Below the pieces are notes generated by a model. It did not search any database, was not told the origin of the DNA, and saw only the letters and a list, made by a program, of their open reading frames with translations. From Enterobacteria phage GEC-3S, in sequence record HE978309: a DNA stretch of 64,000 bases. One strand, 5' to 3'. Each line of letters starts with the position of its first letter. Positions within the stretch are counted from its first letter, which is position 1. This document shows, one piece after another, positions 23,781-58,391 of this stretch. The translations under genes were made by a program, and so were the position numbers.

Positions 23781-24257
23781 TTATTTTTCTTGATGCTCGC
23801 GCTCGTACTTTTCGAAATAAAATTCTACTGGCTGATCGTGGATTGAAAGCAAGCCAAAGCGTTTAGCCGCTCGCAATCCCATATTGCGCTGAATGTACTT
23901 CTGGAAGTTCTCGCGTATACACTTACGCCAGTATTCTAAGCCCATACAGCTTTTATAAAGATTGCATTGCACACACGCCGGATTCATGTTATCAAGTATA
24001 TCATGTTCCGGTTTATGCATTCCTACAACCTTATACTTCCACGATCCATCATCATTACGGGCAATTCGTCCATTTTCATCATAGACTACCTTTGAGCGTC
24101 GCAATACTGGTTTGATATGGTCTGCGTGCCAGCGATCCCCTAGTTCCTCGCCACAATAGGCACAACGCCCACCGTATTTCATTTTCAGGATCTGGCGTTG
24201 CTCTTTCTTTGACAATTTTTTAGGTTTAGGGGCTTTCGCCCCTTCATTATCACACAT
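23781..24257 (-). CDS. HNH endonuclease (free-standing, homing-endonuclease-like)
   Basis: 158 aa; CAYCG...HADHIKP...N...ACVQCN HNH motif; start overlaps ligase stop. Confidence 0.65.
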   Translation of the reverse strand: MCDNEGAKAPKPKKLSKKEQRQILKMKYGGRCAYCGEELGDRWHADHIKPVLRRSKVVYDENGRIARNDDGSWKYKVVGMHKPEHDILDNMNPACVQCNLYKSCMGLEYWRKCIRENFQKYIQRNMGLRAAKRFGLLSIHDQPVEFYFEKYEREHQEK

Positions 24258-39512: not shown

Positions 39513-39554
39513 TGCATTATACACTATTGCGTTACGCTGTCAACTCTTTTTCAA
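39513..39554 (-). promoter_or_regulatory. early promoter (sigma70-like)
   Basis: TTGACA, about 16 nt, TATAAT. Confidence 0.5.
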
Positions 39555-40710
39555 AAGATTTTACGATATACATGATGGTGCTCAATTCGGACGGCGCTAC
39601 TGTCTCTGTGTAGCCATCCGGCATATCTTCTTTCGAGATATAGGAAGTTTTACCTTTCATTGCTTCCTTGATTTTGTTCTCTAATTCTAAGATCTTTTGA
39701 CCGTCTTGTAAAGTCAATTCATAAAAGATCTCATGATCGAACTTTGAAACACGAGATTGGTTTCTCATGCGCTCATGTGTTTCTTTGTTTGTTATTCCAA
39801 ATTTCACGCCAACAAAGGAATCATTGTTGGTTAATTTCTGTATATAAAGAGTTCCTGTCTTTAATGCCTGATAACCATGCTTAGAACACAACGGGCAGCG
39901 TGTTCCGCGATTAACAAAATTATCAATAGTTACATCCCATTCATGGTTACGTTCGCATGTCAGAAGTATTCTTGTTAATGCACCTTTCCACTTTCCTGAA
40001 ATCCCAATAAATTTTAGTCTGTTGGTTTCGCATATTTTTTCAATTTGTTTTAATCGGTCACTTTTTGTTATTGGTGCTGTTCCGCTACATTTGCGACACC
40101 GACGACCTAGTTTGAACTTATCATAACTTTGTTCGTAAATGTGATTATTAGGACACTCAAATTTAAGTTTAGTTTTTGTTCCTCTCCATTCCCCAATTAT
40201 ACCCAAAAATTTATAATCTCCTTTATTTTCATTTATATAAGATAAGGAATCTTCTTTATCATGCATCTTGCCCCCGTTACATAAAGGACATCTTGTTTTT
40301 TGATGAATGAAATCTGTATATGTTGGTTGGTATGTGTGTCCGTTTGTACAGTTCATAATGAGTCTTGTTCTGCTATTTTTATACTCCCCACCAACAAAAC
40401 CAACAAATACATCGTTTGTTTCTTGTTTTATTCTTTCTATCACATTGTTTGGGTTTAATCTTTGAGAATCAACCACACATTTCTTACACGAAACTTTTTT
40501 CCTGATATTTGCTAGAGTTGATGTGTATTCATGCTTGTTATTACATAATATAAGAGCTTTTGTTTTGAGACCAGACCATTCTCCAACAAACCCCATGAAA
40601 GAATAACCAACTTCCAAACATGATTTTTTTACAACATTTTCCCAATAGAAGGGAGTTTTCGTGTTTCCTTTTATTTCTATACGAATCTCATGTGCTTGAC
40701 GTACTAACAT
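39532..40710 (-). CDS. protein with four zinc-ribbon repeats and a C-terminal T5orf172/GIY-YIG-like domain
   Basis: ORF track 39532..40755; start MLVRQAHEIR with GGAGGA RBS; four repeats of G..G.W.G..TK....C...H.Y...(F)....RC..C; C-terminal GTLYIQKL...VGVKFGITN. Confidence 0.55.
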   Translation of the reverse strand: MLVRQAHEIRIEIKGNTKTPFYWENVVKKSCLEVGYSFMGFVGEWSGLKTKALILCNNKHEYTSTLANIRKKVSCKKCVVDSQRLNPNNVIERIKQETNDVFVGFVGGEYKNSRTRLIMNCTNGHTYQPTYTDFIHQKTRCPLCNGGKMHDKEDSLSYINENKGDYKFLGIIGEWRGTKTKLKFECPNNHIYEQSYDKFKLGRRCRKCSGTAPITKSDRLKQIEKICETNRLKFIGISGKWKGALTRILLTCERNHEWDVTIDNFVNRGTRCPLCSKHGYQALKTGTLYIQKLTNNDSFVGVKFGITNKETHERMRNQSRVSKFDHEIFYELTLQDGQKILELENKIKEAMKGKTSYISKEDMPDGYTETVAPSELSTIMYIVKSFEKELTA

Positions 40711-40737
40711 ATTTTTATCCTCCGTTGTTTCGATGAT

Positions 40738-40779
40738 TGTATTATACATTACCACATCAGCATGTCAATACATTTTCAT
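40738..40779 (-). promoter_or_regulatory. early promoter (sigma70-like)
   Basis: TTGACA, 16-17 nt, TATAAT, directly after the gp32 terminator. Confidence 0.5.
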
Positions 40780-43075: not shown

Positions 43076-43672
43076 TTAACCCTCTTTCGTCATTAATTGA
43101 AAACCACGTTCAGCTTTTGAAATTTCGCTAGGACTTAAATCGTCACCCACATATTCTAGCATCATTTCTCGGATAATGTCAAGTGCTTTTTCATCGCCTG
43201 ATTTTAACTCAAACTCAAGTTCATAGTGAGCATCTCCCATTACTTCGCCGACTTTGCAATAATAGAAAGTGTCTCTGCACATTTCCACTATACCACAACC
43301 CATATCTAGAGTCAATGACTTGCGGTATGTCATTACTTGAAGTAAAGGAACGATAAGGTCGGAGTTTACGCCTAGACTATCAACATAGTGATAGAAATCA
43401 TCCATTGTTGAAAAAGTAATTTCTTCTCGGTTGAATAGTCCAGATTCACCATCACCTATTTTGACCATGATCAATGATCTATTAACGTCAAGTCGTGCAT
43501 AAATTCCTTTTTGACGTAGAGCATGATCTTTGGTATCATAATAAAATTCGTGTTTTATAATGTTATCTCGGTCTACGAGATTGTACCCGTCATACATTGC
43601 TACCCACAAATCACAGATTGTTTCGACGCCAATTTGTGAGTGTGCATAGTATTTTAATTCAAGTTCTTTCAT
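43076..43672 (-). CDS. CYTH-domain (triphosphate tunnel metalloenzyme-like) protein
   Basis: 198 aa; N-terminal ELELKYY (ExExK), EFYYDTKDHALRQKGIYARLD, YELEFELK. Confidence 0.5.
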   Translation of the reverse strand: MKELELKYYAHSQIGVETICDLWVAMYDGYNLVDRDNIIKHEFYYDTKDHALRQKGIYARLDVNRSLIMVKIGDGESGLFNREEITFSTMDDFYHYVDSLGVNSDLIVPLLQVMTYRKSLTLDMGCGIVEMCRDTFYYCKVGEVMGDAHYELEFELKSGDEKALDIIREMMLEYVGDDLSPSEISKAERGFQLMTKEG

Positions 43673-44856: not shown

Positions 44857-44864
44857 TATAAATA
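44857..44864 (+). promoter_or_regulatory. T4-type late promoter (TATAAATA) for gene 34
   Basis: exact TATAAATA about 29 nt upstream of the gp34 ATG; AAAGGAGA RBS. Confidence 0.6.
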
Positions 44865-44892: not shown

Positions 44893-47800
44893 ATGGCAGA
44901 TTTTTCTCAACATTTCAAGGCCACATTTGGCTTTGACGCTGGTAATGAAAAGGTCGTCAATGTAGCATTGGCTGATAAGAATGTCAACACCGATGCGGTC
45001 AACGTTGAATTTTTCAATTACCATAATGGTATTACTCAGTATGACACAACTCGCGGTTATGATCAATACGGAACTACAATCTATCAAAACCGTCCGTATT
45101 ATGCAAAAGAAGATATCACAAAACCAGCAGGTGATTTTGACCCGACTAAATGGCAAGCACTGCGCACGGACCCACGTTGGGATTATATTGCAGCAACTTC
45201 CGGTGATACTCCTTTACAGTCTGGTGATTATATCGCAGCAGATGGTCAATTTGCAAACTTGACTTTCTCTATGCCAACTAAACCAGCAGAGGGAGACACT
45301 ATAACAGTAAAAGATATCGGTGGCAAGTGTGGTGTTAACGAATTATCGTTCTTGAGTTCAGGACATGAGTTTTACCATAACGGTAATGTGTATAACCGAA
45401 AATGGTATTGCACTACCCCGTATGCAATGAACTATTTCATCTTTGTTCGTAATCGTTGGCATGTTTATCAGACAGGAACAGAGCCACGCGGTGTGTACGC
45501 ACAGCCAGCGATTGATGCTATTCAAATGCAGAATGGTGATCAGGTCTTTCGTCGTAGTTCGTTGGGTAATATTACCTTAGTGCTTCCTAAGTTTGCCAAC
45601 AATGGCGACATGATCCAGACTACAGACCTTGACGGATTAACCGCAACCAACCACGTTACGGTTAAAGTTCATGAGCACGCAGAAGAACAATCAATTGGCA
45701 CGTCCGGTCTAAAAGAGATTATCGGTAAGCGTAGCGGTCATGGTGTATTCATCTTTGACAAGACGGAAAACTTATGGCGTTTGTGGGATGGTGATCAGTC
45801 TGTTCGTCTTAAACCGATCATCGATGACACTCGCTTGCAACCTAATAGCTATGTTGCCGTATTTGGTGATCGTGATGTTACTCTGACGCTGCCGACCAAT
45901 GTCGAGCCGGGTGATCGTATTCAAGTTTCTATGCAGTATATGCACGGAAACCAGAATTGCCGTATTATCACCGCCACAGAGGATACAAAAATCCTTATGC
46001 AGAAAAACATGGTTCAGTTTCCTAAGCGTAGCGAGTACCCATTCAATGGGACCGATACATGGACGGGAGTTTCTGAATTGTCTTTCAACGCTGCAAATGA
46101 TTATGTACCTTATCTGGAGTTCTCTTATTCAGAAGGTGATGATGGTAAGAAATACTGGTTGGTGGCACATGCTCACCCGATTGTAGAACGAGTAGATCCG
46201 ACTCGTAAAGACCGTGTTGGTGTAATTGCACTGGCTACCCAGGATGAAACAAACAAAAACCATGAAGATAATCCTAGCGACGAAGTTGCGGTGACTCCAA
46301 AGGTTCTGGCTAATAAAACAGCCAACGAAACTCGACGCGGTATTGCTCGCATTGCGACTCAAGCGGAAACGCATCAAGATACTGGTTCTAACTTCCTGGA
46401 TGATGTTATCGTTACGCCTAAAAAGTTAAATGACTGTGTTGCTACCGAAGCCCGTCGTGGTGTGATGGAAATTGCAACCCAGCACGAAACCAATGAAGGT
46501 TTAGACGATACCCGCGCTATTACTCCTAAGAAATTAGAAGAACGTCGCGCTTCCGAAGATCTCGCTGGTATTGCTGAAATTGTTCAGGTTGGCGGTAGTG
46601 CTGCCGCTCGACGTGGCGAAGCTGGTACAGGGATCTATAACATCAATGACCATGCTAAAATTGTTACGCCAAAAAACATCAACGAAGTCAAGGCGACCGA
46701 AACTTCCCGTGGTGTTGGCTATCTGGCAACTGACGCGGAAGTGCAAGGGGCTACAGAATCAACCCCGCAAGATGCTTTACTAATCACTACTCGCACGCTA
46801 ACTAAACGTACTGCTACCGAATCGCGCACTGGTATCGCTGAAATTGCAACTCAGGAAGAAACAAACTTAGGTCAAAGTGATAACCATATCATCACGCCTA
46901 AAAAGCTGCATACTCGCCGCGCAACGGAAACTTTACATGGTTTAGCAGAAATTGCAACTCAACCGGAGTTTGACGCAGGTCTTGACGATGCTCGCATTTC
47001 TACCCCATTGAAGATTAAAACCTTCTTTGAGAATGCACAGCGTTTGAAAGTAGATCCGACTCAGGGGCTTAACCTTACTGGTGATTTGTGGCAAGGTATC
47101 ATGATCAGCGGTCTGGATGCAACCGAAGACACAAAAGGTGTCGCTAAAGTTGCTACTACTCAGCTTACGGATGCTGGTCAAGATGATACTACAATCATCA
47201 CGCCTAAAAAGCTGCAAGGCAAAAAAGCCACCGAAGGTAAAGAAGGTATTATCCGCGTTGGTACTCAAGCCGAAACCGTGGCTGGTACACTGGCTAATGT
47301 AGCAATTTCTCCGAAGAACTTCAAATATGTTGTTCAGACAGAGGATACATGGAAAGCAACCGAAGCGCGTCGTGGATTCTTGAAAGTTGCTACTCAGGAA
47401 AACTGTTTTGTTGGTGACAATCTGCAAGGTTCTACTCAAGAACTAGGAAACTACCAGCATGACGGAATTGCTGTTACCCCGAAAGGATTAAACTATGCAC
47501 TTGCTAATTTCTTACCTAAGATGGCAACCGCTCAGAATAGTTTGAAATTGGGTAACGTAGAGGCCGCTAAATGGGCGCGTAGAGACATTGACCAGACCAT
47601 AGAGAGCAATTACACGTTTAATAAAAACGTTAACGTGAAGGGCGATTTAGGGTGCTTAAAATCTGGTTCCTTTGAAACTCTTTCTGTGACTAAGAACTCT
47701 ACTGATGTTCCGAGTAATGGTCATCTGGTGTTGGGTAAGCGTGGAGTTGACGGTCACACCGGAATTACTCTGCATGGTACAACCGCATCGGAAGGCATGA

Positions 47801-48633
47801 AAAACTCGTGGTCTATTATCGTTGGTGGTACTGGAACAGCGCAAGTTGTTGATAGTGATGCTATCGCTTTCGGTCAAATCAATGATGGTGGAGTCGTCGA
47901 GCATTACGCCTTTGCTGTGGAACACAATGGCGACGCGACAGCATATAGAGACTTTATTGCAGGTCGTAACCTGTATGCGAAACAAGGCGGTTTATACATT
48001 GTTGACCAGTCTAATCCGGCAATGACTCGTTCCCAAGATGGTATGCTGAATATCGGTCACGGTGGAAGTGTTAACATCAAGGCAGGTTCTCAAAAGTTAA
48101 CTACAGAGATCGCCGGACAGAAATATCAGATCGTACACGCAGGAAACGCCGACGAAGTTCTTAACCGTCAGTTTGTTAAGAATGCTGGCGATACAATGGT
48201 CGGTAAGCTGACTATGGATAATGCGCCTATTGTTTCTGTTAAGCATGAAGCTAGCGCGGCAACCGCTCCGGCAATCGGTAACATCGGTTTCTGGAATATG
48301 CGAGTTACTACCCAGAACATCAAAGAAACTTATCCAGAGAAGAAAAACGGTACTCTGATGCAATGGGGTACTGACGCGGACGGGCTTACCCAGCTTTGGT
48401 CCCCTGATGGTACTCATAAACATTATATCCGTTCCGGTACTGGTGGTCAATGGACCGCATGGGGTGAAATTTACACCAAACAGAATAAGCCTACCGCTCA
48501 GGAAATCGGGGCAGTAGTTGCAGAAGGTGGTTTAATGAACTCTATGACGGTTCGTGATTGGATCAAAGTTGGTAATGTTAAAATCATCGCCAATAATCTG
48601 ACTCGTACCGTAGACTTTATCTGGGAAGACTAA
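44893..48633 (+). CDS. 34: gp34 long tail fibre proximal subunit
   Basis: 1246 aa; N-terminus similar to T4 gp34; synteny after rnh. Confidence 0.9.
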   Translation: MADFSQHFKATFGFDAGNEKVVNVALADKNVNTDAVNVEFFNYHNGITQYDTTRGYDQYGTTIYQNRPYYAKEDITKPAGDFDPTKWQALRTDPRWDYIAATSGDTPLQSGDYIAADGQFANLTFSMPTKPAEGDTITVKDIGGKCGVNELSFLSSGHEFYHNGNVYNRKWYCTTPYAMNYFIFVRNRWHVYQTGTEPRGVYAQPAIDAIQMQNGDQVFRRSSLGNITLVLPKFANNGDMIQTTDLDGLTATNHVTVKVHEHAEEQSIGTSGLKEIIGKRSGHGVFIFDKTENLWRLWDGDQSVRLKPIIDDTRLQPNSYVAVFGDRDVTLTLPTNVEPGDRIQVSMQYMHGNQNCRIITATEDTKILMQKNMVQFPKRSEYPFNGTDTWTGVSELSFNAANDYVPYLEFSYSEGDDGKKYWLVAHAHPIVERVDPTRKDRVGVIALATQDETNKNHEDNPSDEVAVTPKVLANKTANETRRGIARIATQAETHQDTGSNFLDDVIVTPKKLNDCVATEARRGVMEIATQHETNEGLDDTRAITPKKLEERRASEDLAGIAEIVQVGGSAAARRGEAGTGIYNINDHAKIVTPKNINEVKATETSRGVGYLATDAEVQGATESTPQDALLITTRTLTKRTATESRTGIAEIATQEETNLGQSDNHIITPKKLHTRRATETLHGLAEIATQPEFDAGLDDARISTPLKIKTFFENAQRLKVDPTQGLNLTGDLWQGIMISGLDATEDTKGVAKVATTQLTDAGQDDTTIITPKKLQGKKATEGKEGIIRVGTQAETVAGTLANVAISPKNFKYVVQTEDTWKATEARRGFLKVATQENCFVGDNLQGSTQELGNYQHDGIAVTPKGLNYALANFLPKMATAQNSLKLGNVEAAKWARRDIDQTIESNYTFNKNVNVKGDLGCLKSGSFETLSVTKNSTDVPSNGHLVLGKRGVDGHTGITLHGTTASEGMKNSWSIIVGGTGTAQVVDSDAIAFGQINDGGVVEHYAFAVEHNGDATAYRDFIAGRNLYAKQGGLYIVDQSNPAMTRSQDGMLNIGHGGSVNIKAGSQKLTTEIAGQKYQIVHAGNADEVLNRQFVKNAGDTMVGKLTMDNAPIVSVKHEASAATAPAIGNIGFWNMRVTTQNIKETYPEKKNGTLMQWGTDADGLTQLWSPDGTHKHYIRSGTGGQWTAWGEIYTKQNKPTAQEIGAVVAEGGLMNSMTVRDWIKVGNVKIIANNLTRTVDFIWED

Positions 48634-48666: not shown

Positions 48667-49806
48667 ATGACACAAGAGATAGAATTACGCAACACTGGAA
48701 TTAGGTTTGCGCATTTCGACGAAGACTCTGCGACATTTACCAGCATTTCAGAAAATAACTCTGTGATGTATAAGCTGGAAGTGCGCGGATCTAATGCGGA
48801 TTCTACCAAACCAGCAAGGATTAGATTTAATGGAGTGGAGATCGTTGGCACTGGCTATGAAAATGGCCTAAATTTTAAAGTTCTTACTCCAACTGGACAA
48901 TTACACGAAGAAAAGGTATTCTATGGTCGCGGTGCTGTTTTGGCAATGCGTGATTATCTTTCTTTGCTGAAAGGTGACTATATCATTGCGATGGCAACGC
49001 ATGGAGAATTGTTTGCAGATCCGGTAAGTGATGTTGTATTTTCTAAGCTGGGATCTGTATCATTCCCGAATCACATTTTGTTACAGCAAATGCCTCGTGT
49101 ATCATATGCAGCAATTTATTCTACGAAAATGGGTAAAATTGTGTGCGAAGGGATGCAAGCAACTCACGGGGAAGGACAAGATTCATCTATACAAATTGAG
49201 AAAGTCTATGATACTATAGATGATCTTGCTATAACAGGAACACCGCAACGATTTTTAGATTATCCGGTTGAGTATGTTAGCGAAGATGCCGAACATTTCG
49301 AGCTAATACAATGGCCTCACGATGAGATCAGCGCCCCACTTGAGGATTTTAACATAAAGGCAGGTGACAAACTATCAATATCCTTTGAATTGTTCCGTGA
49401 TAGTGCCGCAGCCGCAGCCAACGTAACAGCGCGTTTCTATCACAACTACTTCACCGATGGACAATATCAAACTGGTGTTCGATACAATGCCAGCAAAAAA
49501 GATCAATGGGAAAAGTTTGAAGCAGTCTATACCGTACCGGAAGGTGTCGATAGTGTAGTAACTGGTTGTATCAGATATCCAACCAACTCAAGTGAAGGTA
49601 TTGTTAAAATTAGAAACATACTAATAACGCCGATCAGTGGAGTCGTCAAAACTACTGGTCCTACTTCATTTGGTGTTAATGGTGTTAGAACAACTCATAT
49701 TCAGGATAACGGTGATTTTACTAACCCTGTAATGAGTCTTCTTAAGCTGCCTAGAGACAATAAACATATCACATCCAACAACTTTAAAGAGTTCGATGTT
49801 GATTAA
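48667..49806 (+). CDS. 35: gp35 long tail fibre hinge
   Basis: 379 aa (T4 gp35 is 372 aa by my recollection), synteny. Confidence 0.8.
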   Translation: MTQEIELRNTGIRFAHFDEDSATFTSISENNSVMYKLEVRGSNADSTKPARIRFNGVEIVGTGYENGLNFKVLTPTGQLHEEKVFYGRGAVLAMRDYLSLLKGDYIIAMATHGELFADPVSDVVFSKLGSVSFPNHILLQQMPRVSYAAIYSTKMGKIVCEGMQATHGEGQDSSIQIEKVYDTIDDLAITGTPQRFLDYPVEYVSEDAEHFELIQWPHDEISAPLEDFNIKAGDKLSISFELFRDSAAAAANVTARFYHNYFTDGQYQTGVRYNASKKDQWEKFEAVYTVPEGVDSVVTGCIRYPTNSSEGIVKIRNILITPISGVVKTTGPTSFGVNGVRTTHIQDNGDFTNPVMSLLKLPRDNKHITSNNFKEFDVD

Positions 49807-49816
49807 CATTTTTAAC

Positions 49817-49848
49817 AAGCCGATCCATGTGGTCGGCTTTATTTTTAT
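49817..49848 (+). terminator. rho-independent terminator after gene 35
   Basis: hairpin AAGCCGA...UCGGCUU then UAUUUUUAU. Confidence 0.55.
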
Positions 49849-49968
49849 ACAGTTGGTTAAAATGTAACCAAAACGAAGAAAGATCTTTAGAATAATAGAA
49901 AATTTGTTTCGGTTAAAAATTAGTCAGTGCCTCCGGCACGTCGCGAAGCGATATTTTTGTTAACATTC

Positions 49969-49976
49969 TATAAATA
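49969..49976 (+). promoter_or_regulatory. T4-type late promoter (TATAAATA) for gene 36
   Basis: exact TATAAATA about 34 nt upstream of the gp36 ATG. Confidence 0.6.
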
Positions 49977-50009: not shown

Positions 50010-51500
50010 ATGGCAGATTTGAAATATGGATCTACTGTAGGTGGATCTCCCATTTGGACGCAAGGAAACTTGACGATCCAGCCAGCGGGGGATCAGCTTT
50101 TCTACAAAGGTCATAAAATCTATACCGCTTTTGATAGACCTTCGGCTACCGATTTTGATGCTGTTAGTGCATCCGAAGGTGGCACATTTCAAAAGCAAGT
50201 TCATTTCGAGGAAGGTTTAAGCGTAGGTAGCGCATCGGCTGGAGAAACTAAAAAGAATGGTATCTTTAAAGGTCAGAGTGACGCTGCTAATTTTGACGGT
50301 GTAAGCTGGGGTTTGCATTCATGGAAGTCAATCGGCTTTGTTAATGCCCGTGATGGCGTTATTATGGCGTATATTGACACCACAACTGGCGAATTTAAGT
50401 CTAAAGGGACTATCGAAGGGACAACCATTAAAGACACAGGTCAACGCGTCTATAGCCCTGTTAATAAACCAACGAATAATGATTTAGATTTGGTGTCTCG
50501 TCGCGGTGATACTCTCACAGGAACATATAATTTAAACACCGTCACTGTTAAACTATCGGTTGATTCGAAATTAATTGCAAGGGAACGTGATTTAATTAAT
50601 TTTGATGCGACTAAGATCTATTATGGTAACGTTCTTGATACGTTGGTCTTCCGAAGTAAAGATGAGCCTACCATTTTTGTTAATGGCAAAGAAGGTCGTT
50701 TTTATCACACCAACAATAAACCAACTAAAGCCGATGTTGGACTAGGCAATGTCACCAATGATGCACAGGTTAAACGTGCTGGTGATATTATGGAAGGTAA
50801 CTTGCAAGCGCCTAGAATGTTGGCGACAAACGATCCTGCTGGTCCTAATGAATTGGTTCGTTTGAGCTACTTTGAGAGAAAATCAATGGTAGCAAATCCA
50901 ACCATCATTGGAAACGTTGATTGGAACACTCTTATTAATCGCGGTATCTATCGTGTGGAAAATGCTGGATCAGGTACTAATAAACCGTCTGATAGCTATT
51001 ATAACGGCGTTTTGATGGTATATCGCCCAGAAGATGCGGTCGGTACTCGTCGAATTGTTCAGGTGTATTATCCTGAATCTATTGACCATCCGATGTGCTG
51101 GCGTTCTTGTTCTAATGAATCATGGACTGCATGGAACTATGTAGATCACCGTAAATTAGCCGATATTCGCTATGTTAACGTAACTGGCGATACCATGACA
51201 GGACCGTTAACTGTTCCGGCTGCAAACGGTGTTAGAACAGCTAAAACTAACTATAACGGGGATAACTGTTATGCGGCGTTAAGCGGTGCTGATGGTACTG
51301 CTATGATTCACCGCATTAGTGATATTAAAGGGACCGAAAAGCTGGGGATCACCCACGACTCAAAGGTCGTGTTTTTCCGTTCTAGAAACAATACTCAAAC
51401 CGTGGATCGCTATCAGCTTTATCATGAAGGTAATAAACCTACTCCGGCTGATGTTGGAGCGGTTCCACTTAATGCGGTGATTGATTTTGGTACTTTCTAA
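50010..51500 (+). CDS. 36: gp36 long tail fibre distal connector (expanded, 496 aa)
   Basis: N-terminus MADLKYGSTVGGSPIWTQGN similar to T4 gp36; more than twice the T4 length. Confidence 0.8.
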   Translation: MADLKYGSTVGGSPIWTQGNLTIQPAGDQLFYKGHKIYTAFDRPSATDFDAVSASEGGTFQKQVHFEEGLSVGSASAGETKKNGIFKGQSDAANFDGVSWGLHSWKSIGFVNARDGVIMAYIDTTTGEFKSKGTIEGTTIKDTGQRVYSPVNKPTNNDLDLVSRRGDTLTGTYNLNTVTVKLSVDSKLIARERDLINFDATKIYYGNVLDTLVFRSKDEPTIFVNGKEGRFYHTNNKPTKADVGLGNVTNDAQVKRAGDIMEGNLQAPRMLATNDPAGPNELVRLSYFERKSMVANPTIIGNVDWNTLINRGIYRVENAGSGTNKPSDSYYNGVLMVYRPEDAVGTRRIVQVYYPESIDHPMCWRSCSNESWTAWNYVDHRKLADIRYVNVTGDTMTGPLTVPAANGVRTAKTNYNGDNCYAALSGADGTAMIHRISDIKGTEKLGITHDSKVVFFRSRNNTQTVDRYQLYHEGNKPTPADVGAVPLNAVIDFGTF

Positions 51501-51504
51501 TTTT

Positions 51505-51529
51505 AGCGGGGATTATCTCCCCGCTTTTC
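51505..51529 (+). terminator. hairpin, weak terminator after gene 36
   Basis: AGCGGGGA-UUAUC-UCCCCGCU then UUUC. Confidence 0.4.
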
Positions 51530-51570
51530 TAAATAATATTATTCTAATAACCGTTTAAGGATTTTATAAA

Positions 51571-54339
51571 ATGGCAGATTTAAGCAGAATCCAATTTAAA
51601 CGCACTAGCACTAAAGGTCGTAAACCTGATGCTAGTACGATGAATCCGGGGGAATTGGCAATCAACCTTGCGGATCAATATCTTCTTACTAAAAATGATT
51701 CCGGTGCTATTATCAATTTAAGTTGCCCTCCGGTGTATGACCGTGATGTTACAATGGCGGGTAAGGTTAAAGGTAATAATTATATCTTAGGTAAAACCGC
51801 CAACTATCTGGAAGATCAGACAGCGCGAGATCTTAACTACTTTGGTGCTTTCCGTACCAATGGTCTTGATGGTTTTCTCGAACTCACGCTAAACGTTCCT
51901 CATTCTTCTGGTGTTCAGCATGGTCGAGGATTTACTTTCCAGTATGGACACACAGGAAACCGTGTAGAAACTTATGGTTATAATAAAGAAGGACAAAAAG
52001 CATTTAGCTATAAAATGTATCACGAAGGTGATAAACCAACACCCTCAGAATTGAACGTTTACAGCAAACAAGAAGTTGACCGTATGTTTGTTAAAAACGT
52101 TAAACTTGCTACAGTTCCTGGTGATATAGTTGACGGTTATTTTAAATTAGCAACTGCAATGATTCCGCAAAGCGGTCGTAGTGTATTTTTCCGTATTCAT
52201 GGTGGTAACGGATATAACGTTACTGCATACGATCAAGTTGATATTGTAGAAATTGTTATTCGCAGTGGAAATAATCGTCCTAAAGGTGTTAACGTTATTG
52301 CATATCGCCGAAATACAAACAAAGCATTTGATGTTTTGGCTGTTAATACTTCTGGTGATAACTATGATATCTACGTGAAATATCAGCGTTATACTGATAA
52401 CGTTATTGTTGAATTTGGTAAAAGTGTTGATGTTAATCTGGTAGTCCATGACGTTCCAGACTTTGTTGTTGATCGTCCTGCTGGCGATAATGTTATTGGC
52501 GGTCGCGCGGTAACTCTTTTTAACACCGAAAACAAACGAGGTGTGTTGAGTTTTGACGATAACACACAAAATAGTTATGATATTGTTCACTTGAGTAATG
52601 ATAGGGGTACTGGACGAAAATATATTCGTAAATTCCGTAGTAACTATAATGAAATGATCTGGCACGAGACGGTTCAAGGCGCCAGCTATCGTCTGGCTAC
52701 TGGTGCAACTGATGTTCAGGAGATTCTAACCGTTGAATCTGTTAGCTCAATTGCTGGAACTCATAAAGGTAATATTACTTCTGGCCGTATGCTGTTAAAT
52801 GGTGGTAGTAATGTTATTACCTTGCGGCGTCCTGCTGGTCAATCCAACCATATTGCGTTTCAAGATAATCGTACTGGAGATATTACCCGTCAAGGATGGA
52901 TCGGTTATGCCAATGCTGATACTAACGTTTTTGAATGGTATAGTGATGTAGGTGGCAGTTCTATTCGTCAACATATCGACGGACAGATCGAATTTCAGAC
53001 AGGTAGCATGAAGCGAGTTTATACTAACGGACAATTCATTTCATTATATGCCGATGGCTTCCGTACAGTATATGGAAACTATGGTTCATGGTGGCGAAAT
53101 GACGGTAGTAACGTTTATCTGATGAGCACAAAATCAGGCGACACTATGGGTCCGTGGAATACCTTTAGGCCGTTCATATACAGTCTCGCCAATGGAAACG
53201 TTACTCTAGGTGGTAGCGATGCTGGCAACCATTTAATGCGTCTCAATAATGAAAATCGTCAAGTAGAAATAAATGCAACAACACATTTAGGGTCTCGATT
53301 ATATTGGGAACGTAGCGAAGGATCGGCATCTAGATTTTTTATTAAGAATTGGGGTAATGGATCTTCTCGCGCTCAAGTGTGGGAACTTGCTGACGAGACA
53401 GGTTATCATGTATATTCTCAGCGAAACGACGCGGGTGTTCTTCAATTCCGTACTGCTGGTAATTTTGAGACTGGTGGTGATGCTCAAGTAAACGGGACTT
53501 TACGTGTCACCAATGTTCTTCGAACAGATAACCAAATTCAGATTTATCGCGATAACAACAAAGAACTCTGGTTTAAGGATGCTAATGGTACTAACCGTGG
53601 TGTTATCTGGGGTGATAGCACAGGTCAAATGCGCATTCGAAACTATAACAGCGGAGAATTTGACCATGTTTTCCAGACTGGTATGATTCGCTTAGAACGT
53701 GGGTATGCAAACGGTAGCGACCGTGGTTTGATTCGCGGAGAAGTACAAGGTGGTGCTTGGTCAGAATGGAAAACTCGCGCTGCTGGCTTATTGGTTGACT
53801 GTCCAGCTGCTCAAACTTCCGCATATAACGTATGGAAAGCGACCAAATGGGGTTTAGACCACATCGCGGCAATGGGCGTTCATGTTCCTAGTGGCGTTAT
53901 TACTAATGCTATGGCACGTCTTCATATTCATACCACAAACTTTGACTTTAACGCCTCCGGTGATTTCCAAGCAGGTCGTAACGGTAATTTTAACGATGTG
54001 TATATTCGTTCTGATGCTCGCCTTAAAATCAATAAGGAAGAGTATAAGGAGAATGCCACCGATAAAGTTAATCGCTTGACGGTATACACCTATGACAAGG
54101 TTAAATCTTTAACCGACCGTACTGTCATTGCTCATGAAGTTGGTATTATTGCTCAGGATCTTGAGAAAGAATTGCCGGAAGCCGTAACAACTTCTAAGGT
54201 CGGCGATCCTGATAAGCCAGAAGAGATCTTAACAATTTCTAACTCTGCTGTCAACGCTCTTTTAATTAAGGCGTTTCAGGAAATGAGCGAAGAACTTAAA
54301 GCCGTTAAAGCTGAACTAGCGGAACTTAAAAAGAATTAA
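51571..54339 (+). CDS. 37: gp37 long tail fibre distal subunit with C-terminal intramolecular chaperone (peptidase S74-like) domain
   Basis: 922 aa; N-terminus MADLSRIQFKRTSTKGRKP similar to T4 gp37; C-terminal about 110 aa begins SDARLKINKE. Confidence 0.8.
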   Translation: MADLSRIQFKRTSTKGRKPDASTMNPGELAINLADQYLLTKNDSGAIINLSCPPVYDRDVTMAGKVKGNNYILGKTANYLEDQTARDLNYFGAFRTNGLDGFLELTLNVPHSSGVQHGRGFTFQYGHTGNRVETYGYNKEGQKAFSYKMYHEGDKPTPSELNVYSKQEVDRMFVKNVKLATVPGDIVDGYFKLATAMIPQSGRSVFFRIHGGNGYNVTAYDQVDIVEIVIRSGNNRPKGVNVIAYRRNTNKAFDVLAVNTSGDNYDIYVKYQRYTDNVIVEFGKSVDVNLVVHDVPDFVVDRPAGDNVIGGRAVTLFNTENKRGVLSFDDNTQNSYDIVHLSNDRGTGRKYIRKFRSNYNEMIWHETVQGASYRLATGATDVQEILTVESVSSIAGTHKGNITSGRMLLNGGSNVITLRRPAGQSNHIAFQDNRTGDITRQGWIGYANADTNVFEWYSDVGGSSIRQHIDGQIEFQTGSMKRVYTNGQFISLYADGFRTVYGNYGSWWRNDGSNVYLMSTKSGDTMGPWNTFRPFIYSLANGNVTLGGSDAGNHLMRLNNENRQVEINATTHLGSRLYWERSEGSASRFFIKNWGNGSSRAQVWELADETGYHVYSQRNDAGVLQFRTAGNFETGGDAQVNGTLRVTNVLRTDNQIQIYRDNNKELWFKDANGTNRGVIWGDSTGQMRIRNYNSGEFDHVFQTGMIRLERGYANGSDRGLIRGEVQGGAWSEWKTRAAGLLVDCPAAQTSAYNVWKATKWGLDHIAAMGVHVPSGVITNAMARLHIHTTNFDFNASGDFQAGRNGNFNDVYIRSDARLKINKEEYKENATDKVNRLTVYTYDKVKSLTDRTVIAHEVGIIAQDLEKELPEAVTTSKVGDPDKPEEILTISNSAVNALLIKAFQEMSEELKAVKAELAELKKN

Positions 54340-54381
54340 GGAAAACTCCCAGGGAAGGGAAACTACTAAGGAGAAACGGCT

Positions 54382-54621
54382 ATGGTCTATAATATCGTCA
54401 TTGGTGCTTTGTCTAGTTTCGGAATGAAATTATTGTCAAAGTTAATTAGTGAAAAGATGCTCACTAAAATTTTCTTCTATTGCGCTCGTCGTCTTGCGGC
54501 TTATACCAATACGCCAATTGATGATCGTTTTGTGGAAGAACTTTATAAGGAGTTTAATAAAGATCAGTCAGAAGATAGTAACGAGCAAGAGAAACCTAGT
54601 GATAGTCAACTACCTAAATAA
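54382..54621 (+). CDS. small protein with N-terminal hydrophobic helix (79 aa)
   Basis: ORF track; AAGGAGAAACGGCT RBS; sits where gp38 lies in T4 but shows no resemblance. Confidence 0.45.
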   Translation: MVYNIVIGALSSFGMKLLSKLISEKMLTKIFFYCARRLAAYTNTPIDDRFVEELYKEFNKDQSEDSNEQEKPSDSQLPK

Positions 54622-54654: not shown

Positions 54655-55311
54655 ATGCAAGTTTCTGAAAAAGGGAAAGACTTTGCTATCTCAAATGTCC
54701 TGCGCGCTATTTTCACAACTAAAAGCACGGAGTTGCTCGTACTTCGTGTTTTTGCTGCCGTCGTGTTGTCCATATTGGCATTTGTCGTTTATAGTAAAAA
54801 CGAGTTGTTTGCGCTTTATAAAGAGACTCGTTATGAGACTTATGCTCACATTCTCCAGGTAGAGAAAGACCGCAATTTTGATAATGCAGCACAGGAGCAG
54901 TTACAGATAGTTCATGTGTCGGCTGATGCCGATTTTTCTGCTGTTTTTAGTTTTCGTCCGAAAAACCTAAACTATTTTGTTGATTTGGTGGCATATGAAG
55001 GAAAGTTGCCGCATACAATCGATGAAAAAAATTTAGGCGGATTCCCTATCAATAAAACGAGTGAAGAATATCGTAGGCATCTTTTAGGTAAATCATATTT
55101 TACCGATAAAGATTTCCAGTATATTCCATCAAGAGAAAAGAAATTAGAGAATATCGATATAGGTTTCATGTATTCTTGTCCTATATTCAATCTCGATAAT
55201 GTCTATTCTGGTAGTATCGCCATTTCATGGAAGAATAAACCGGATATTGACATTGAGAATTTAGATACTCTTTGCAATCAATCTGCCAGAATCCTCGGAA
55301 GGATTAGATAA
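54655..55311 (+). CDS. t: holin
   Basis: 218 aa; ETRYETYAHILQVEKDR...LQIVHVSADADFSAVFSFRPKNLNYFVDLVAYEGKLP...SARILGR matches T4 holin T. Confidence 0.9.
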   Translation: MQVSEKGKDFAISNVLRAIFTTKSTELLVLRVFAAVVLSILAFVVYSKNELFALYKETRYETYAHILQVEKDRNFDNAAQEQLQIVHVSADADFSAVFSFRPKNLNYFVDLVAYEGKLPHTIDEKNLGGFPINKTSEEYRRHLLGKSYFTDKDFQYIPSREKKLENIDIGFMYSCPIFNLDNVYSGSIAISWKNKPDIDIENLDTLCNQSARILGRIR

Positions 55312-57590: not shown

Positions 57591-58391
57591 TTAACCCTTC
57601 TTATATTCGCAAACATATTGAGTACCATAATCATAGCTAATGCGACCTTTCTCGATGACTTCAAAGCGGATTTCATCGTTTTCCCCTACCCACATTTTGT
57701 ACTCGTTGAAGTATCCTGCTACATCCGGTTTGCTCATACCAACAACCATATTTTTATATTGTTTGCTGCGTGTCAGATTTGATTTAAACACTTCGCGCTC
57801 ATCAACATATACGAAAGAAGACAATTCACCTTCGGTCATGGTCATTTTCAGCTTGCCGCCCTTGTTGCCATAAGTAGAGTTGCCATACAATGGATCTTTG
57901 CGGCTGTCTGTTTCAATACCATCAATGATTTTCCATGTAAATTTTGCAATGCACTGATAAGTGATAGATCCAGAGATTTTCTCTTCTTTCTTCTGTTCTT
58001 CCACCACTTTTTCTTCCTGTTTCGGCTGTTCTTCTTCAACCTTCACGGAAGTCTCTGAATCGATTTCTGACGCGGTTTCTTCTTTAGGTAATACATTCAT
58101 CAAGTTTTGGATTTGAGCGTTATATACAGCCTCCAGTGGCTGGATCTGCCCGATATTGATCATTGTATCACGAACAGTTTTATTCCAGTTGCGTTGCTCT
58201 TGTTTAAGAGACGGATCAATCTTAACAGCCTTAACATATACTTCATGAAGTTTCGAATCCAGTGCGGAGATTGACTCATTAGCACAAATAAACTTCTCTG
58301 ATTTGGTAGTAGCTTTAGCGCAATCAAAGGACGCAGCATTAGCACCGAAAGCAGTAGCAGAAAGAACGATAGCAGCGATAATGTTTTTCAT
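57591..58391 (-). CDS. secreted protein with DUF1311 (LprI-like) N-terminal domain
   Basis: 266 aa; signal peptide MKNIIAAIVLSATAFGANA; FDCAKATTKSEKFIC...LDSKLHEVY. Confidence 0.5.
   Translation of the reverse strand: MKNIIAAIVLSATAFGANAASFDCAKATTKSEKFICANESISALDSKLHEVYVKAVKIDPSLKQEQRNWNKTVRDTMINIGQIQPLEAVYNAQIQNLMNVLPKEETASEIDSETSVKVEEEQPKQEEKVVEEQKKEEKISGSITYQCIAKFTWKIIDGIETDSRKDPLYGNSTYGNKGGKLKMTMTEGELSSFVYVDEREVFKSNLTRSKQYKNMVVGMSKPDVAGYFNEYKMWVGENDEIRFEVIEKGRISYDYGTQYVCEYKKG

What the first reader, a model, noticed from the sequence alone, without database searches (positions are those of the whole stretch)
50010..54621. Unusual distal tail fibre module: doubled gp36, gp37 with a C-terminal self-cleaving chaperone-like domain, no gp38
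gp36 is 496 aa (T4 has 221 aa as I recall). gp37 ends in a roughly 110-aa domain starting SDARLKINKE (near nt 54010), which matches the Ser-Asp-x-Arg-Leu-Lys start of intramolecular chaperone (peptidase S74) domains on phage fibre tips. The gene after gp37 is a 79-aa membrane-type protein with no resemblance to gp38. Together this implies fibre folding and receptor recognition that differ from the T4 and T2 schemes, with a tip exposed after autoproteolysis.
Basis: partly seen in the sequence, partly recalled or inferred. Interest (0 to 1): 0.5.

Follow-up and report, generated by a model that had tools for sequence, protein, structure and literature searches.

The report
RB49-type tail fibre genes, adhesin elsewhere
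This is the ordinary, already described long-tail-fibre gene cluster of an RB49-like (Krischvirus) coliphage. Its fibre protein sheds a self-cleaving folding domain just as phage T2's does. The "missing" receptor-binding protein gp38 is, in every relative examined, simply encoded elsewhere in the genome.

Summary
gp36 is 496 aa. gp37 is 922 aa and ends in a 109-aa Peptidase_S74 intramolecular chaperone that starts at S814 (nt 54010, DVYIR^SDARLK). A 79-aa ORF, not gp38, follows it.

The inference drawn from this is wrong. The window is a Krischvirus (RB49-like) phage, 95-98% identical in DNA to many sequenced isolates.
- T2 gp37 ends in the same chaperone and the same cleavage motif, so this is the T2/T6/S16 scheme, not a departure from it.
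- Cleavage exposes a docking surface for gp38, not a receptor-binding tip.
- All 30 best-matching phage records carry one gp38 adhesin gene far from g37 (RB49 45.4 kb, JK32 47.0 kb). That position lies about 45 kb beyond this window's right end.
- The displacement was published in 2002/2011 and again in 2026, and RB49 host-range mutations map to gp38.
- The long gp36 and the 79-aa "Dc5" ORF are conserved genus traits.
- In phage kvi the 79-aa ORF sits next to an adjacent gp38, so it does not replace gp38.

The one less routine point is that gp37 residues about 300-810 are 90-100% identical to a side fibre of E. coli prophages. Those prophages also encode a Gp38_N adhesin.

Verdict: already known, low interest.

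The parts
44857..44864 (+). T4-type late-promoter consensus TATAAATA, 29 nt upstream of g34
   Evidence: There are only 5 copies in the window (no more than chance), but two of them sit just upstream of g34 and g36.
44893..48633 (+). gp34, proximal half-fibre (1246 aa)
   Evidence: 98.2% identical to RB49 gp34; RB49 annotation.
48667..49806 (+). gp35, knee/hinge protein (379 aa)
   Evidence: 98.2% identical to RB49 gp35; phrog_1154 E 1.4e-126; T2 gp35 tblastn E 3.7e-24.
49817..49849 (+). Terminator-like hairpin with a T-run, after g35
   Evidence: 9-bp stem with 5 GC pairs, followed by TATTTTTATA.
49969..49976 (+). Late-promoter consensus TATAAATA, 34 nt upstream of g36. No other copy occurs between here and the end of t.
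50010..50522 (+). gp36 residues 1-171: the core shared with all T-even gp36 proteins
   Evidence: T2 gp36 residues 1-182 align here at 38% identity, E 1.4e-29. In 1439 phage records, most non-Krischvirus hits cover only residues 1-171.
50523..51500 (+). gp36 residues 172-496: an extension specific to Krischvirus, not a duplication. It contains three NKPT and three GDxMxG junction motifs, a small beta domain at about residues 300-380, and a C-terminal gp37-docking module ending in DFGTF.
   Evidence: 99.8% identical to RB49 and 100% to Phi1. Only 70 phage records cover at least 80% of gp36, and only 24 database proteins match the extension. No self-similarity, and the motif positions. In the AF2 model only residues about 300-380 reach pLDDT 64-77. 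Residues 396-496 are 31% identical to the C-terminus of the prophage 277-aa adaptor protein, E 9e-5.
51571..52110 (+). gp37 residues 1-180: N-terminal part of RB49 type, including the gp36-binding end
   Evidence: 87-97% identical to RB49 gp37 in 30-residue blocks. T2 gp37 residues 1-70 align here, E 1.7e-12.
52471..54000 (+). gp37 residues 301-810: the variable distal shaft cassette. It is 23-73% identical to RB49 but mostly 90-100% identical to an E. coli prophage side fibre.
   Evidence: block identities; 86% over 860 aa to L032:7415-10864; 87-89% DNA identity to E. coli 39EVA and 14EC007 chromosomes.
52891..53181 (+). Gp34_trimer-type knob domain inside gp37 (residues 441-537)
   Evidence: Pfam PF21446 E 3.6e-22. 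T4 gp34 C-terminal crystal structures 4UXE/5NXF match residues 481-548, E about 1e-14.
53995..54009 (+). DVYIR strand (residues 809-813), the predicted last strand of mature gp37 and the gp38 docking site. Cleavage is predicted after R813.
   Evidence: The sequence itself. The same motif is DVYIR^SDGRLKI in T2-like phages and DLNVS^SDRRIKK in S16 (PMC7917993). It is present in RB49, T2 and 20 prophage fibres.
54010..54339 (+). Intramolecular chaperone domain (Peptidase_S74) of gp37, residues 814-922 plus the stop codon. S814 and K819 match the Ser and Lys of the S-D-x-R-x-K motif.
   Evidence: Pfam PF13884 E 9.8e-12; 6F45_A E 1.4e-4; 95-100% identical to RB49 in 30-residue blocks; T2 gp37 residues 1117-1340 align at 34% identity, E 1.4e-20.
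54382..54621 (+). 79-aa ORF (RB49ORF251w / 'Dc5' ORF), a small conserved phage protein of unknown function. It has a Shine-Dalgarno AAGGAG at 54368-54373. It is not a gp38.
   Evidence: 94.9% identical to the RB49 ORF. phrog_402 E 5.5e-20, function unknown. Homologs occur in 386 phage records in varied late-gene contexts. A conserved FF..A..T.TP.DD.F motif appears. The ORF coexists with an adjacent gp38 in phage kvi.
54655..55311 (+). Holin T (218 aa), which marks the end of the late fibre/lysis unit
   Evidence: Pfam Phage_holin_T E 4.5e-61; phrog_860 E 5e-88.

Best explanation
The region is the distal long-tail-fibre module of a Krischvirus (RB49-like 'pseudo-T-even') coliphage, and it works by the T2/T6/S16 scheme.

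Proposed mechanism:
1. g36, g37, the 79-aa ORF and t are read as one late unit from the TATAAATA at 49969.
2. gp36 trimers are 496 aa here. They have the normal T-even N-terminal core plus a genus-specific C-terminal extension, and they join the gp35 knee to gp37.
3. gp37 trimerises with the help of its own C-terminal 109-aa intramolecular chaperone (S74 family).
4. The chaperone then cuts itself off between R813 and S814.
5. The new C-terminal end (the DVYIR strands) is not the receptor-binding tip. It is the docking surface for one copy of the gp38 adhesin, whose glycine-rich C-terminal domain binds the receptor (OmpA and some O antigens in RB49).
6. In this phage lineage, gene 38 is not next to g37. 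It sits about 55 kb downstream on the other strand, outside this window.
7. The long gp36 makes up for a short gp37. gp36 plus mature gp37 comes to 1309 residues, against 1366 in RB49 and 1461 in T2.

Shown here: gene content, domain identities, the cleavage motif, homology to T2 and S16, and the presence of gp38 in all relatives examined.

Inferred: actual cleavage, gp38 attachment, and the presence of gene 38 in this particular genome.
For: Identity of the phage: 95-98% DNA identity to many Krischvirus genomes across the window. gp34, gp35, gp36 and the 79-aa ORF are 98.2%, 98.2%, 99.8% and 94.9% identical to RB49.

Chaperone domain: Pfam Peptidase_S74 9.8e-12. The gp37 chain of the S16 gp37-gp38 crystal structure (6F45_A) matches at 1.4e-4. 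T2 gp37 aligns over residues 691-916 at 1.4e-20 and has the same YIR^SDxRLK site. Published cleavage sites for S16 and T2-like phages are in PMC7917993.

gp38:
- RB49 gene 38 lies at 45367-46143, with Pfam GP38 7e-72.
- All 30 records in the top list have exactly one gp38 match, for example JK32 47037-47816, annotated 'tail fiber adhesin'.
- The window corresponds to RB49 coordinates of about 100-164 kb, so that locus is out of range.

Literature: g38 'displaced to a distant locus' with a small ORF in its place (PMC3157838); gp38 about 55 kb downstream of gp37 in Krischvirus (10.64898/2026.04.02.716166); RB49 gp37 self-cleaves, gp38 attaches, and gp38 E230K changes host range (PMC9569957).

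Independent co-occurrence: 20 prophage loci that carry a gp37-like fibre with DVYIR^SD also encode a Gp38_N protein about 0.7 kb downstream.

Krischvirus phage kvi has g37-g38-Dc5 ORF-t, and that is its only gp38. So there is one gp38 per genome, either adjacent or displaced.
Against: - No gp38 can be shown for this phage itself. Neither tblastn nor HMMs find one in the 64-kb window, and the phage's own genome was not found in the collections searched.
- No experiment here shows cleavage or gp38 attachment.
- The displaced g38 of RB49 and JK32 has no TATAAAT late-promoter consensus within 2.5 kb upstream, so how it is expressed late is unclear.
- gp37 residues 300-810 differ strongly from RB49, so results from RB49 transfer by homology only. 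The last 60 residues before the cut and the chaperone itself are, however, conserved.
Confidence: 0.9

Rival explanations
1. The fibre is independent of gp38: the chaperone is cleaved off and the exposed end of gp37 itself binds the receptor, as in the phage T5 L-shaped fibre or K1F endosialidase.
For: There is no gp38 in the 64-kb window. S74 chaperones do occur on fibres and spikes that bind or cut their receptor directly (T5, K1F; cited in PMC6832132). The gp37 distal shaft is highly variable within the genus, as would be expected of a specificity determinant.
Against: - Every related genome examined has one gp38.
- The strand before the cut is the conserved DVYIR gp38-docking strand of T2-like phages.
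- The nearest non-Krischvirus homologs of this gp37 (86% identical prophage fibres) are themselves paired with a Gp38_N adhesin.
- RB49 host-range mutants map to gp38.
Confidence: 0.04
2. The 79-aa ORF after g37 has taken over the gp38 role, as an adhesin or as a fibre assembly factor.
For: It occupies the slot that g38 has in T2 and is co-transcribed with g37. In Felixounavirus a homolog also lies directly after a tail fibre gene.
Against: - In phage kvi the same ORF (97% identical) sits after an adjacent, complete gp38, so it is an additional gene and not a substitute.
- It has no Gp38_N or GP38 similarity.
- Homologs lie after a lysozyme gene in a Vibrio phage, after a needle-knob gene in Aeromonas LAh_6 and before a tail tubular gene in Cronobacter A24. 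There is no consistent link to fibres.
- The Felixounavirus fibre next to it is of the T4 gp37_C type and has no S74 domain.
Confidence: 0.02
3. An add-on to the best explanation rather than an alternative. gp38 is the main adhesin, but the swapped gp37 distal shaft (residues about 300-810) is a second host-range determinant, for example by contacting O antigen or another surface structure from the side.
For: gp34, gp35 and gp36 are at least 98% conserved against RB49, while this part of gp37 drops to 23-73%. The same part is 90-100% identical to E. coli prophage fibres, which is a cassette exchange. Receptor-predictive k-mers were reported in both Gp37 and Gp38 of Straboviridae. RB49-like phages use several alternative receptors.
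Against: Known RB49 host-range changes map to gp38 alone. Fibre shafts are notoriously mosaic even without selection for binding (Trojet 2011). No binding domain was identified in the cassette; its only domain hit is a structural Gp34_trimer knob.
Confidence: 0.15

Closest known systems
Long tail fibre locus of Escherichia phage RB49, Phi1, JSE and JK32 (genus Krischvirus)
   Same: Same gene order, g34-g35-g36(496 aa)-g37-Dc5 ORF-t. gp34, gp35, gp36 and the 79-aa ORF are 95-99.8% identical. The chaperone domain is identical, and there is no gene 38 next to g37.
   Different: gp37 is 922 aa, not 979 aa, and only 61% identical overall to RB49. Its allele is shared with JK32, JEP8, Ec_Makalu_002 and ELT4 at 92-96.5% DNA identity.
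T2/T6/S16-type distal fibre: gp37 with a self-cleaving C-terminal chaperone, capped by a monomeric gp38 adhesin (PDB 6F45)
   Same: S74 chaperone domain, the (D/N)VYIR^SDxRLK cleavage and docking motif, and homology to T2 gp37 over the last 225 residues. gp38 of the T2 type (Pfam GP38 plus Gp38_N) is present in relatives.
   Different: Gene 38 is not adjacent but about 55 kb away on the other strand. gp36 is 496 aa against 219 aa, and gp37 is 922 aa against 1341 aa.
T4 distal fibre: gp37 with its own receptor-binding needle tip, folded by the chaperones gp38 and gp57A
   Same: The overall gp34-gp35-gp36-gp37 fibre design and the position next to holin t. RB49 also has a 57A gene.
   Different: T4 gp37 has no S74 chaperone and is not capped, and T4 gp38 is a non-structural chaperone. 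No gp37_C or gp37_trimer Pfam domains are found here.
Peptidase S74 intramolecular chaperone domains of K1F endosialidase and the T5 L-shaped tail fibre
   Same: The same Pfam family and Ser...Lys motif. The domain is predicted to drive trimer folding and then release itself.
   Different: In K1F and T5 the mature protein itself carries the enzyme or receptor-binding site. Here the cut end is expected to receive a separate adhesin.
Krischvirus phages kvi and FL20 (adjacent g37-g38 cassette)
   Same: Same genus, with an identical gp36 length and the Dc5 ORF (97% identical) and t downstream.
   Different: These phages have gp38 directly after g37. Their gp37 is only 42% identical to the window's. 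A remnant of the RB49-type g37 3' end follows their gp38.
Side fibre of E. coli siphovirus-type prophages (for example strain 14EC007, 2.97 Mb; IMGVR_UViG_2579779116_000018)
   Same: The fibre is 86% identical to this gp37 over residues 71-920, including the Gp34_trimer and S74 domains. It is preceded by an adaptor with a gp36-like C-terminus and accompanied by a Gp38_N protein.
   Different: The context is a siphovirus with a lambda-type portal. The fibre has an extra 220-aa N-terminal part. The adhesin is 168 aa and lacks the polyglycine domain.

Membership tests
T2/T6/S16-type distal long tail fibre (gp37 with chaperone domain plus gp38 adhesin) | gp37 ends in a Peptidase_S74 intramolecular chaperone domain | tested here: met
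   Pfam PF13884 E 9.8e-12, 45.4 bits against a cutoff of 22, residues 814-873. S16 gp37 (6F45_A) E 1.4e-4. The T2 gp37 C-terminus aligns at E 1.4e-20.
T2/T6/S16-type distal long tail fibre (gp37 with chaperone domain plus gp38 adhesin) | Conserved cleavage and docking motif: a beta-strand (DVYIR in T2-like phages) directly before S-D-x-R-(L/I)-K | tested here: met
   NFNDVYIR^SDARLKINKE at residues 806-823. The motif definition comes from PMC7917993.
T2/T6/S16-type distal long tail fibre (gp37 with chaperone domain plus gp38 adhesin) | The genome encodes a gp38 adhesin (Gp38_N attachment domain plus glycine-rich GP38 domain) | tested here: inconclusive
   Absent from the 64-kb window. Present once in each of the 30 closest records, at a map position outside the window. 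This phage's remaining genome was not available.
T2/T6/S16-type distal long tail fibre (gp37 with chaperone domain plus gp38 adhesin) | Gene 38 lies immediately downstream of gene 37 | tested here: not met
   Only 42 nt separate the g37 stop codon (54339) from the 79-aa ORF (54382). This is the known RB49-type exception. The feature concerns gene order, not mechanism.
T2/T6/S16-type distal long tail fibre (gp37 with chaperone domain plus gp38 adhesin) | The chaperone domain is removed by autoproteolysis and one gp38 is bound to the mature tip in virions | not testable with these tools
   This needs SDS-PAGE or mass spectrometry of virions, or a structure of the complex.
Krischvirus (RB49-like) long tail fibre locus | Gene order g34-g35-g36-g37-Dc5 ORF-t, with a 496-aa gp36 | tested here: met
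   ORF map, RB49 annotation and 95-99.8% protein identities. Only about 70 phage records have this long gp36.
T4-type distal fibre (gp37 needle tip plus gp38 chaperone) | gp37 C-terminal needle and tip domains (Pfam gp37_C / gp37_trimer), with no cleaved chaperone | tested here: not met
   gp37 gives no hit to PF12604 or PF20744 at E <= 0.01. It has an S74 domain instead.
Self-sufficient S74-tipped fibres (T5 pb1 / K1F type, with no separate adhesin) | No separate tip adhesin is encoded, and the mature C-terminus itself is the binding or catalytic module | tested here: inconclusive
   The relatives all encode gp38, and the nearest prophage homologs pair with a Gp38_N protein, which argues against membership. 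This phage's own full genome has not been seen.

The most novel reading that the evidence does not exclude
In the gp37 allele group to which this window belongs (together with JK32, JEP8, Ec_Makalu_002 and ELT4), the distal shaft cassette covers residues about 300-810. It is mostly 90-100% identical to the side fibre of E. coli siphovirus-type prophages and only 23-73% identical to RB49. The novel reading is that this cassette is not just scaffold. It would be a second host-range determinant that acts alongside the distantly encoded gp38, for example by binding O antigen or another envelope structure from the side. Fibre specificity in these phages would then be split between two unlinked loci that exchange independently with prophages.
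Probability: 0.12. Interest if true: 0.45.

Novelty: already known. Interest (0 to 1): 0.08.

Why it matters
It matters little as a discovery. The RB49-type fibre locus, the self-cleaving chaperone on gp37 and the relocation of gene 38 have all been published, and gp38 has been shown experimentally to set RB49 host range.

The practical lesson concerns annotation. The absence of gp38 next to g37 in a T4-like phage does not mean the phage lacks gp38. An S74 chaperone domain on gp37 is the rule among T-even phages rather than an oddity.

The exchange of a gp37 cassette with E. coli prophage fibres is a useful small example of how virulent and temperate phages share host-recognition parts. This is relevant to host-range prediction and to fibre engineering.

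Tried and rejected
- Internal duplication of gp36: BLASTP of gp36 against itself gave no off-diagonal hit. Only short junction motifs recur, so it is an extension, not a doubling.
- Structure of gp36: AlphaFold2 with a 10-sequence alignment gave mean pLDDT 42, and only residues about 300-380 reached 64-77. Foldseek against the PDB gave nothing at E <= 1e-3. The top hit was the T4 gp34 C-terminus at E 3e-3 with TM 0.12. This agrees with a weak gp34-like sequence similarity but is not usable as evidence.
- Finding this phage's own genome, so as to look for gene 38 directly: an exact-protein look-up of gp37 found no record. IMG/VR holds only relatives and prophages. The phage collection holds no record above 96.5% identity for the fibre region.
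- Full-length gp37 against PDB sequences found only gp34-type knob domains. The S16 gp37 match appeared only when the C-terminal 312 aa were searched alone.
- gp38 in the window: tblastn with T2 gp38 and HMMs of gp38 and Gp38_N were both negative, with a positive control.
- A role for the 79-aa ORF from its context: five genomic contexts were sampled and showed no consistent neighbour. A transmembrane helix is not supported by hydropathy. Pfam gave nothing meaningful at E <= 1.
- Covariation of the gp38 N-terminus with the gp37 allele was rejected. JK32 and RB49 gp38 are identical over the first ~105 residues despite their different gp37 shafts.
- The papers of Desplats 2002 and Hyman & van Raaij 2018 are not in the held library.
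Full report
**What is there**

The stretch 44.9-55.3 kb of the window carries six co-oriented genes on the + strand:
- a 1246-aa ORF at 44893-48633
- a 379-aa ORF at 48667-49806
- a 496-aa ORF at 50010-51500
- a 922-aa ORF at 51571-54339
- a 79-aa ORF at 54382-54621
- a 218-aa ORF at 54655-55311

The last is a T-type holin (Pfam Phage_holin_T, E 4.5e-61). The others are gp34, gp35, gp36 and gp37 of a T4-like long tail fibre. PHROG assignments are, and T2 gp35, gp36 and gp37 align by tblastn.

The T4 late-promoter consensus TATAAATA lies just upstream of g34 (44857) and of g36 (49969). A terminator-like hairpin follows g35 (49817-49839). Neither signal occurs between g36 and the end of t. The 79-aa ORF has a good Shine-Dalgarno sequence 8 nt before its ATG. 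So g36, g37, the 79-aa ORF and t look like one late transcription unit. This last point is an inference.

**Which phage**

The finding's region is 96.5% identical in DNA to Shigella phage JK32. It is 92-96% identical to JEP8, Ec_Makalu_002, ELT4, RB49, Phi1, ECD7 and others. The flanks are 95-98% identical to the same group. All of these belong to the genus Krischvirus, the RB49-like 'pseudo-T-even' phages. Against RB49, gp34 is 98.2% identical, gp35 98.2%, gp36 99.8% and the 79-aa ORF 94.9%. RB49 annotates the same gene order, and the small ORF is RB49ORF251w / 'Dc5'. The window corresponds to RB49 coordinates of about 100-164 kb and ends just after rIIB.

**Checking the observation**

- SDARLKINKE starts at gp37 residue 814, which is nt 54010, and 109 residues follow.
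- Pfam Peptidase_S74 ('chaperone of endosialidase') matches residues 814-873 at E 9.8e-12, well above the curated cutoff.
- The gp37 chain of the Salmonella phage S16 gp37-gp38 crystal structure (6F45_A) matches residues 805-920 at E 1.4e-4.
- The 79-aa ORF has no similarity to gp38 in Pfam.
- Neither tblastn with T2 gp38 nor HMMs of gp38 and of its N-terminal domain find anything in the 1324 stop-to-stop ORFs of the window (best E 0.58). An HMM built without RB49 or JK32 recovers RB49 gp38 at 3e-23.

Two descriptions need softening.
- gp36 is twice the usual size but is not a duplication.
- The 79-aa ORF is not demonstrably a membrane protein. Its best 19-residue hydropathy is 1.45, against 2.86 for the holin helix.

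But T2 gp37, fetched from AP018813, ends in ...NAPNVYIR^SDIRLKSN... followed by a 99-aa chaperone. It aligns with the window's gp37 over residues 691-916 (E 1.4e-20). The S74 chaperone is therefore the T2/T6/S16 state, which the literature calls the predominant one among T-even phages (PMC3157838; PMC9569957).

In S16 the last 113 residues are autocleaved at DLNVS^SDRRIKK. In T2-like phages the equivalent site is DVYIR^SDGRLKI. The three DVYIR strands of the trimer form the surface onto which the N-terminal domain of one gp38 molecule docks (PMC7917993). The window has DVYIR^SDARLKI. What cleavage exposes is thus a docking site for the adhesin, not a receptor-binding tip.

**Where gp38 is**

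RB49 gene 38 lies at 45367-46143 on the minus strand. It encodes 258 aa and is annotated 'similar to T2 and RB69 gp38 adhesin'. It matches Pfam GP38 at 7e-72 and Gp38_N at 6e-18.

A megablast with this gene finds one copy in each of the 30 records that were listed as best matches to the window's fibre region (compare). These include the four phages that share this window's gp37 allele. JK32, for example, has it at 47037-47816, annotated 'tail fiber adhesin'.

On the circular map that is about 55 kb downstream of g37, or about 45 kb beyond the right end of this window. This displacement is published:
[quoted passage not shown] 2011, citing Desplats 2002).
- The JK32 paper draws the locus with the 'Dc5 ORF' (PMC6832132).

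Functionally, RB49 mutants that gain a new host carry E230K or Y231S in gp38 (PMC9569957). RB49 also has a 57A chaperone gene.

First, some Krischvirus phages have the canonical arrangement. Phage kvi has g36 (496 aa), g37 (922 aa, but only 42% identical to the window's), g38 (259 aa, directly adjacent), the Dc5 ORF (97% identical to the window's) and t. That adjacent gene is the only gp38 match in kvi and in FL20. Directly after the kvi gp38 stop codon comes a remnant of the RB49-type g37 3' end and spacer. This indicates that a g37-g38 cassette replaced the resident g37. So each genome has one gp38, either adjacent or displaced. The 79-aa ORF is an independent gene, not a stand-in for gp38.

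Second, the closest relatives of this gp37 outside the genus are fibres of 1149-1207 aa in about 35-kb E. coli prophages. The best of them is 86% identical over residues 71-920. All 20 such loci also encode a 168-aa protein with a Gp38_N domain about 0.7 kb downstream (Pfam 4e-15). NCBI annotation names it 'receptor recognizing protein Gp38'. This fibre type therefore travels with a gp38-type adhesin even in a siphovirus.

**Anatomy of gp36**

Residues 1-171 correspond to T2 gp36 residues 1-182 (38% identity, E 1.4e-29). T2 residues 170-213 align again at window gp36 residues 251-294. The remainder is specific to this genus:
- Only 70 of 1439 phage records with a gp36 match cover at least 80% of the protein.
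- Only 24 proteins in the large database match residues 172-496.

The extension contains three (Y)xxxNKPT and three GDxMxG motifs, the usual joints between fibre modules. It has a segment weakly similar to the gp34 C-terminal knob region. Its last 100 residues resemble the C-terminus of the prophage's 277-aa adaptor protein, and both end in DFG(T/E)(F/Y) as T2 gp36 does.

A structure prediction was uninformative (mean pLDDT 42). Summed chain lengths suggest compensation: gp36 plus mature gp37 is 1309 residues here, 1366 in RB49 and 1461 in T2.

**Anatomy of gp37**

gp37 is a mosaic.
- Residues 1-180 are 87-97% identical to RB49.
- Residues about 300-810 fall to 23-73% identity with RB49 but are mostly 90-100% identical to the prophage fibre. 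At the DNA level this stretch is 87-89% identical to E. coli chromosomes.
- The chaperone domain is essentially identical in all three.
- A Gp34_trimer knob domain sits at residues 441-537, and T4 gp34 crystal structures match residues 481-548.

The N-terminal ~105 residues of gp38 are identical in JK32 and RB49 despite their different gp37 shafts. The shaft cassette and the adhesin attachment domain therefore do not co-vary.

**The 79-aa ORF**

It belongs to phrog_402 (E 5.5e-20), a family of unknown function. tblastn finds homologs in 386 phage records. The contexts sampled were:
- directly after a T4-type tail fibre gene in Felixounavirus
- after a lysozyme gene in a Vibrio phage
- after a needle-knob gene in Aeromonas phage LAh_6
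- before a tail tubular gene in Cronobacter phage A24

Members share an N-terminal amphipathic or hydrophobic helix and a conserved FF..A..T.TP.DD.F motif. Its function remains open. My best guess is a small late accessory protein unrelated to fibre tip function. That guess is weakly supported.

**Verdict**

The finding is a correct reading of the local sequence attached to an incorrect inference. The module is a new isolate's copy of a known locus that works by the known T2/S16 mechanism, with the known RB49-type relocation of gene 38. Novelty: already known. Interest: low.

The most novel reading that the evidence does not exclude is that the prophage-derived gp37 shaft cassette contributes to host range alongside gp38. 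I put this at about 12%.

Noticed in passing
window 52471-54000 (gp37 residues 301-810); L032:7415-10864; L065:12912-16352: gp37 is a mosaic. Its distal shaft is mostly 90-100% identical in protein (87-89% in DNA) to a side-fibre gene of E. coli chromosomal prophages, while gp34, gp35 and gp36 stay at least 98% identical to RB49. This points to a cassette exchange between a virulent T4-like phage and temperate phages. The conserved chaperone domain is a likely right-hand crossover site.
   Followed up: partly
L032:6502-12062 and L065:12001-17566 (E. coli 14EC007 chromosome, 2.97 Mb): A family of about 35-kb siphovirus-type E. coli prophages was seen in 51 of 5426 complete E. coli genomes. They have terminase gpA, a lambda-type portal, a fused protease-capsid protein, a tail tube protein and a J-like tip protein. 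Between the head and tail genes they carry a T-even-style fibre set: a 277-aa adaptor with a gp36-like C-terminus, a 1150-1200-aa gp37-like fibre with an S74 chaperone, and a 168-aa Gp38_N adhesin that lacks the polyglycine domain.
   Followed up: partly
L066:2352-6240 (Escherichia phage kvi, MN850615.1): Within Krischvirus there are two fibre-tip layouts. kvi and FL20 have a g37-g38 cassette in the canonical adjacent position and no displaced copy. Right after the kvi gp38 stop codon lies a remnant of the RB49-type g37 3' end (AAAAAGAATTAA plus the same spacer), which is a visible scar of cassette replacement.
   Followed up: partly
L003:46144-48643 (RB49) and L062:1-2500 (JK32), upstream of the displaced gene 38: The displaced gp38 gene sits among minus-strand early-region ORFs. 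It is preceded directly by a GC-rich hairpin plus a T-run, and no TATAAAT late-promoter consensus lies within 2.5 kb upstream. How a virion adhesin is expressed from there is not obvious.
   Followed up: partly
window 54382-54621; L059:3492-3689; L060:3504-3713; L063:2992-3192; L064:3004-3186: The 79-aa 'Dc5' ORF belongs to a widespread small-protein family (phrog_402, 386 phage records). The family is found in Felixounavirus, Erwinia, Vibrio, Aeromonas and Cronobacter phages, always among late or structural or lysis genes. It has a conserved FF..A..T.TP.DD.F motif and no known function.
   Followed up: partly
window 57591-58391 (- strand): A 266-aa protein with an apparent N-terminal signal peptide and a Pfam LprI (lysozyme inhibitor) domain (E 5.3e-5), a few genes from the holin. 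Its RB49 homolog is annotated as hypothetical.
   Followed up: no
window 23781-24257 (- strand): A 158-aa HNH endonuclease ORF (Pfam HNH, E 5e-6) that overlaps the start of the neighbouring 498-aa ORF by 8 nt (24250-25746, DNA ligase by its position in related genomes). It is probably a free-standing homing endonuclease.
   Followed up: no
window 39532-40749 (- strand): A 405-aa protein with three CapR homology domains and a treble-clef zinc finger (Pfam, 8e-30 and 2e-11), lying between frd/td-region genes and gene 32. Its role is unknown.
   Followed up: no
window 43076-43672 (- strand): A CYTH-domain protein (triphosphate tunnel family, Pfam E 4.7e-6) between rnh and dsbA. RB49 notes a similarity to E. 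coli ygiF.
   Followed up: no
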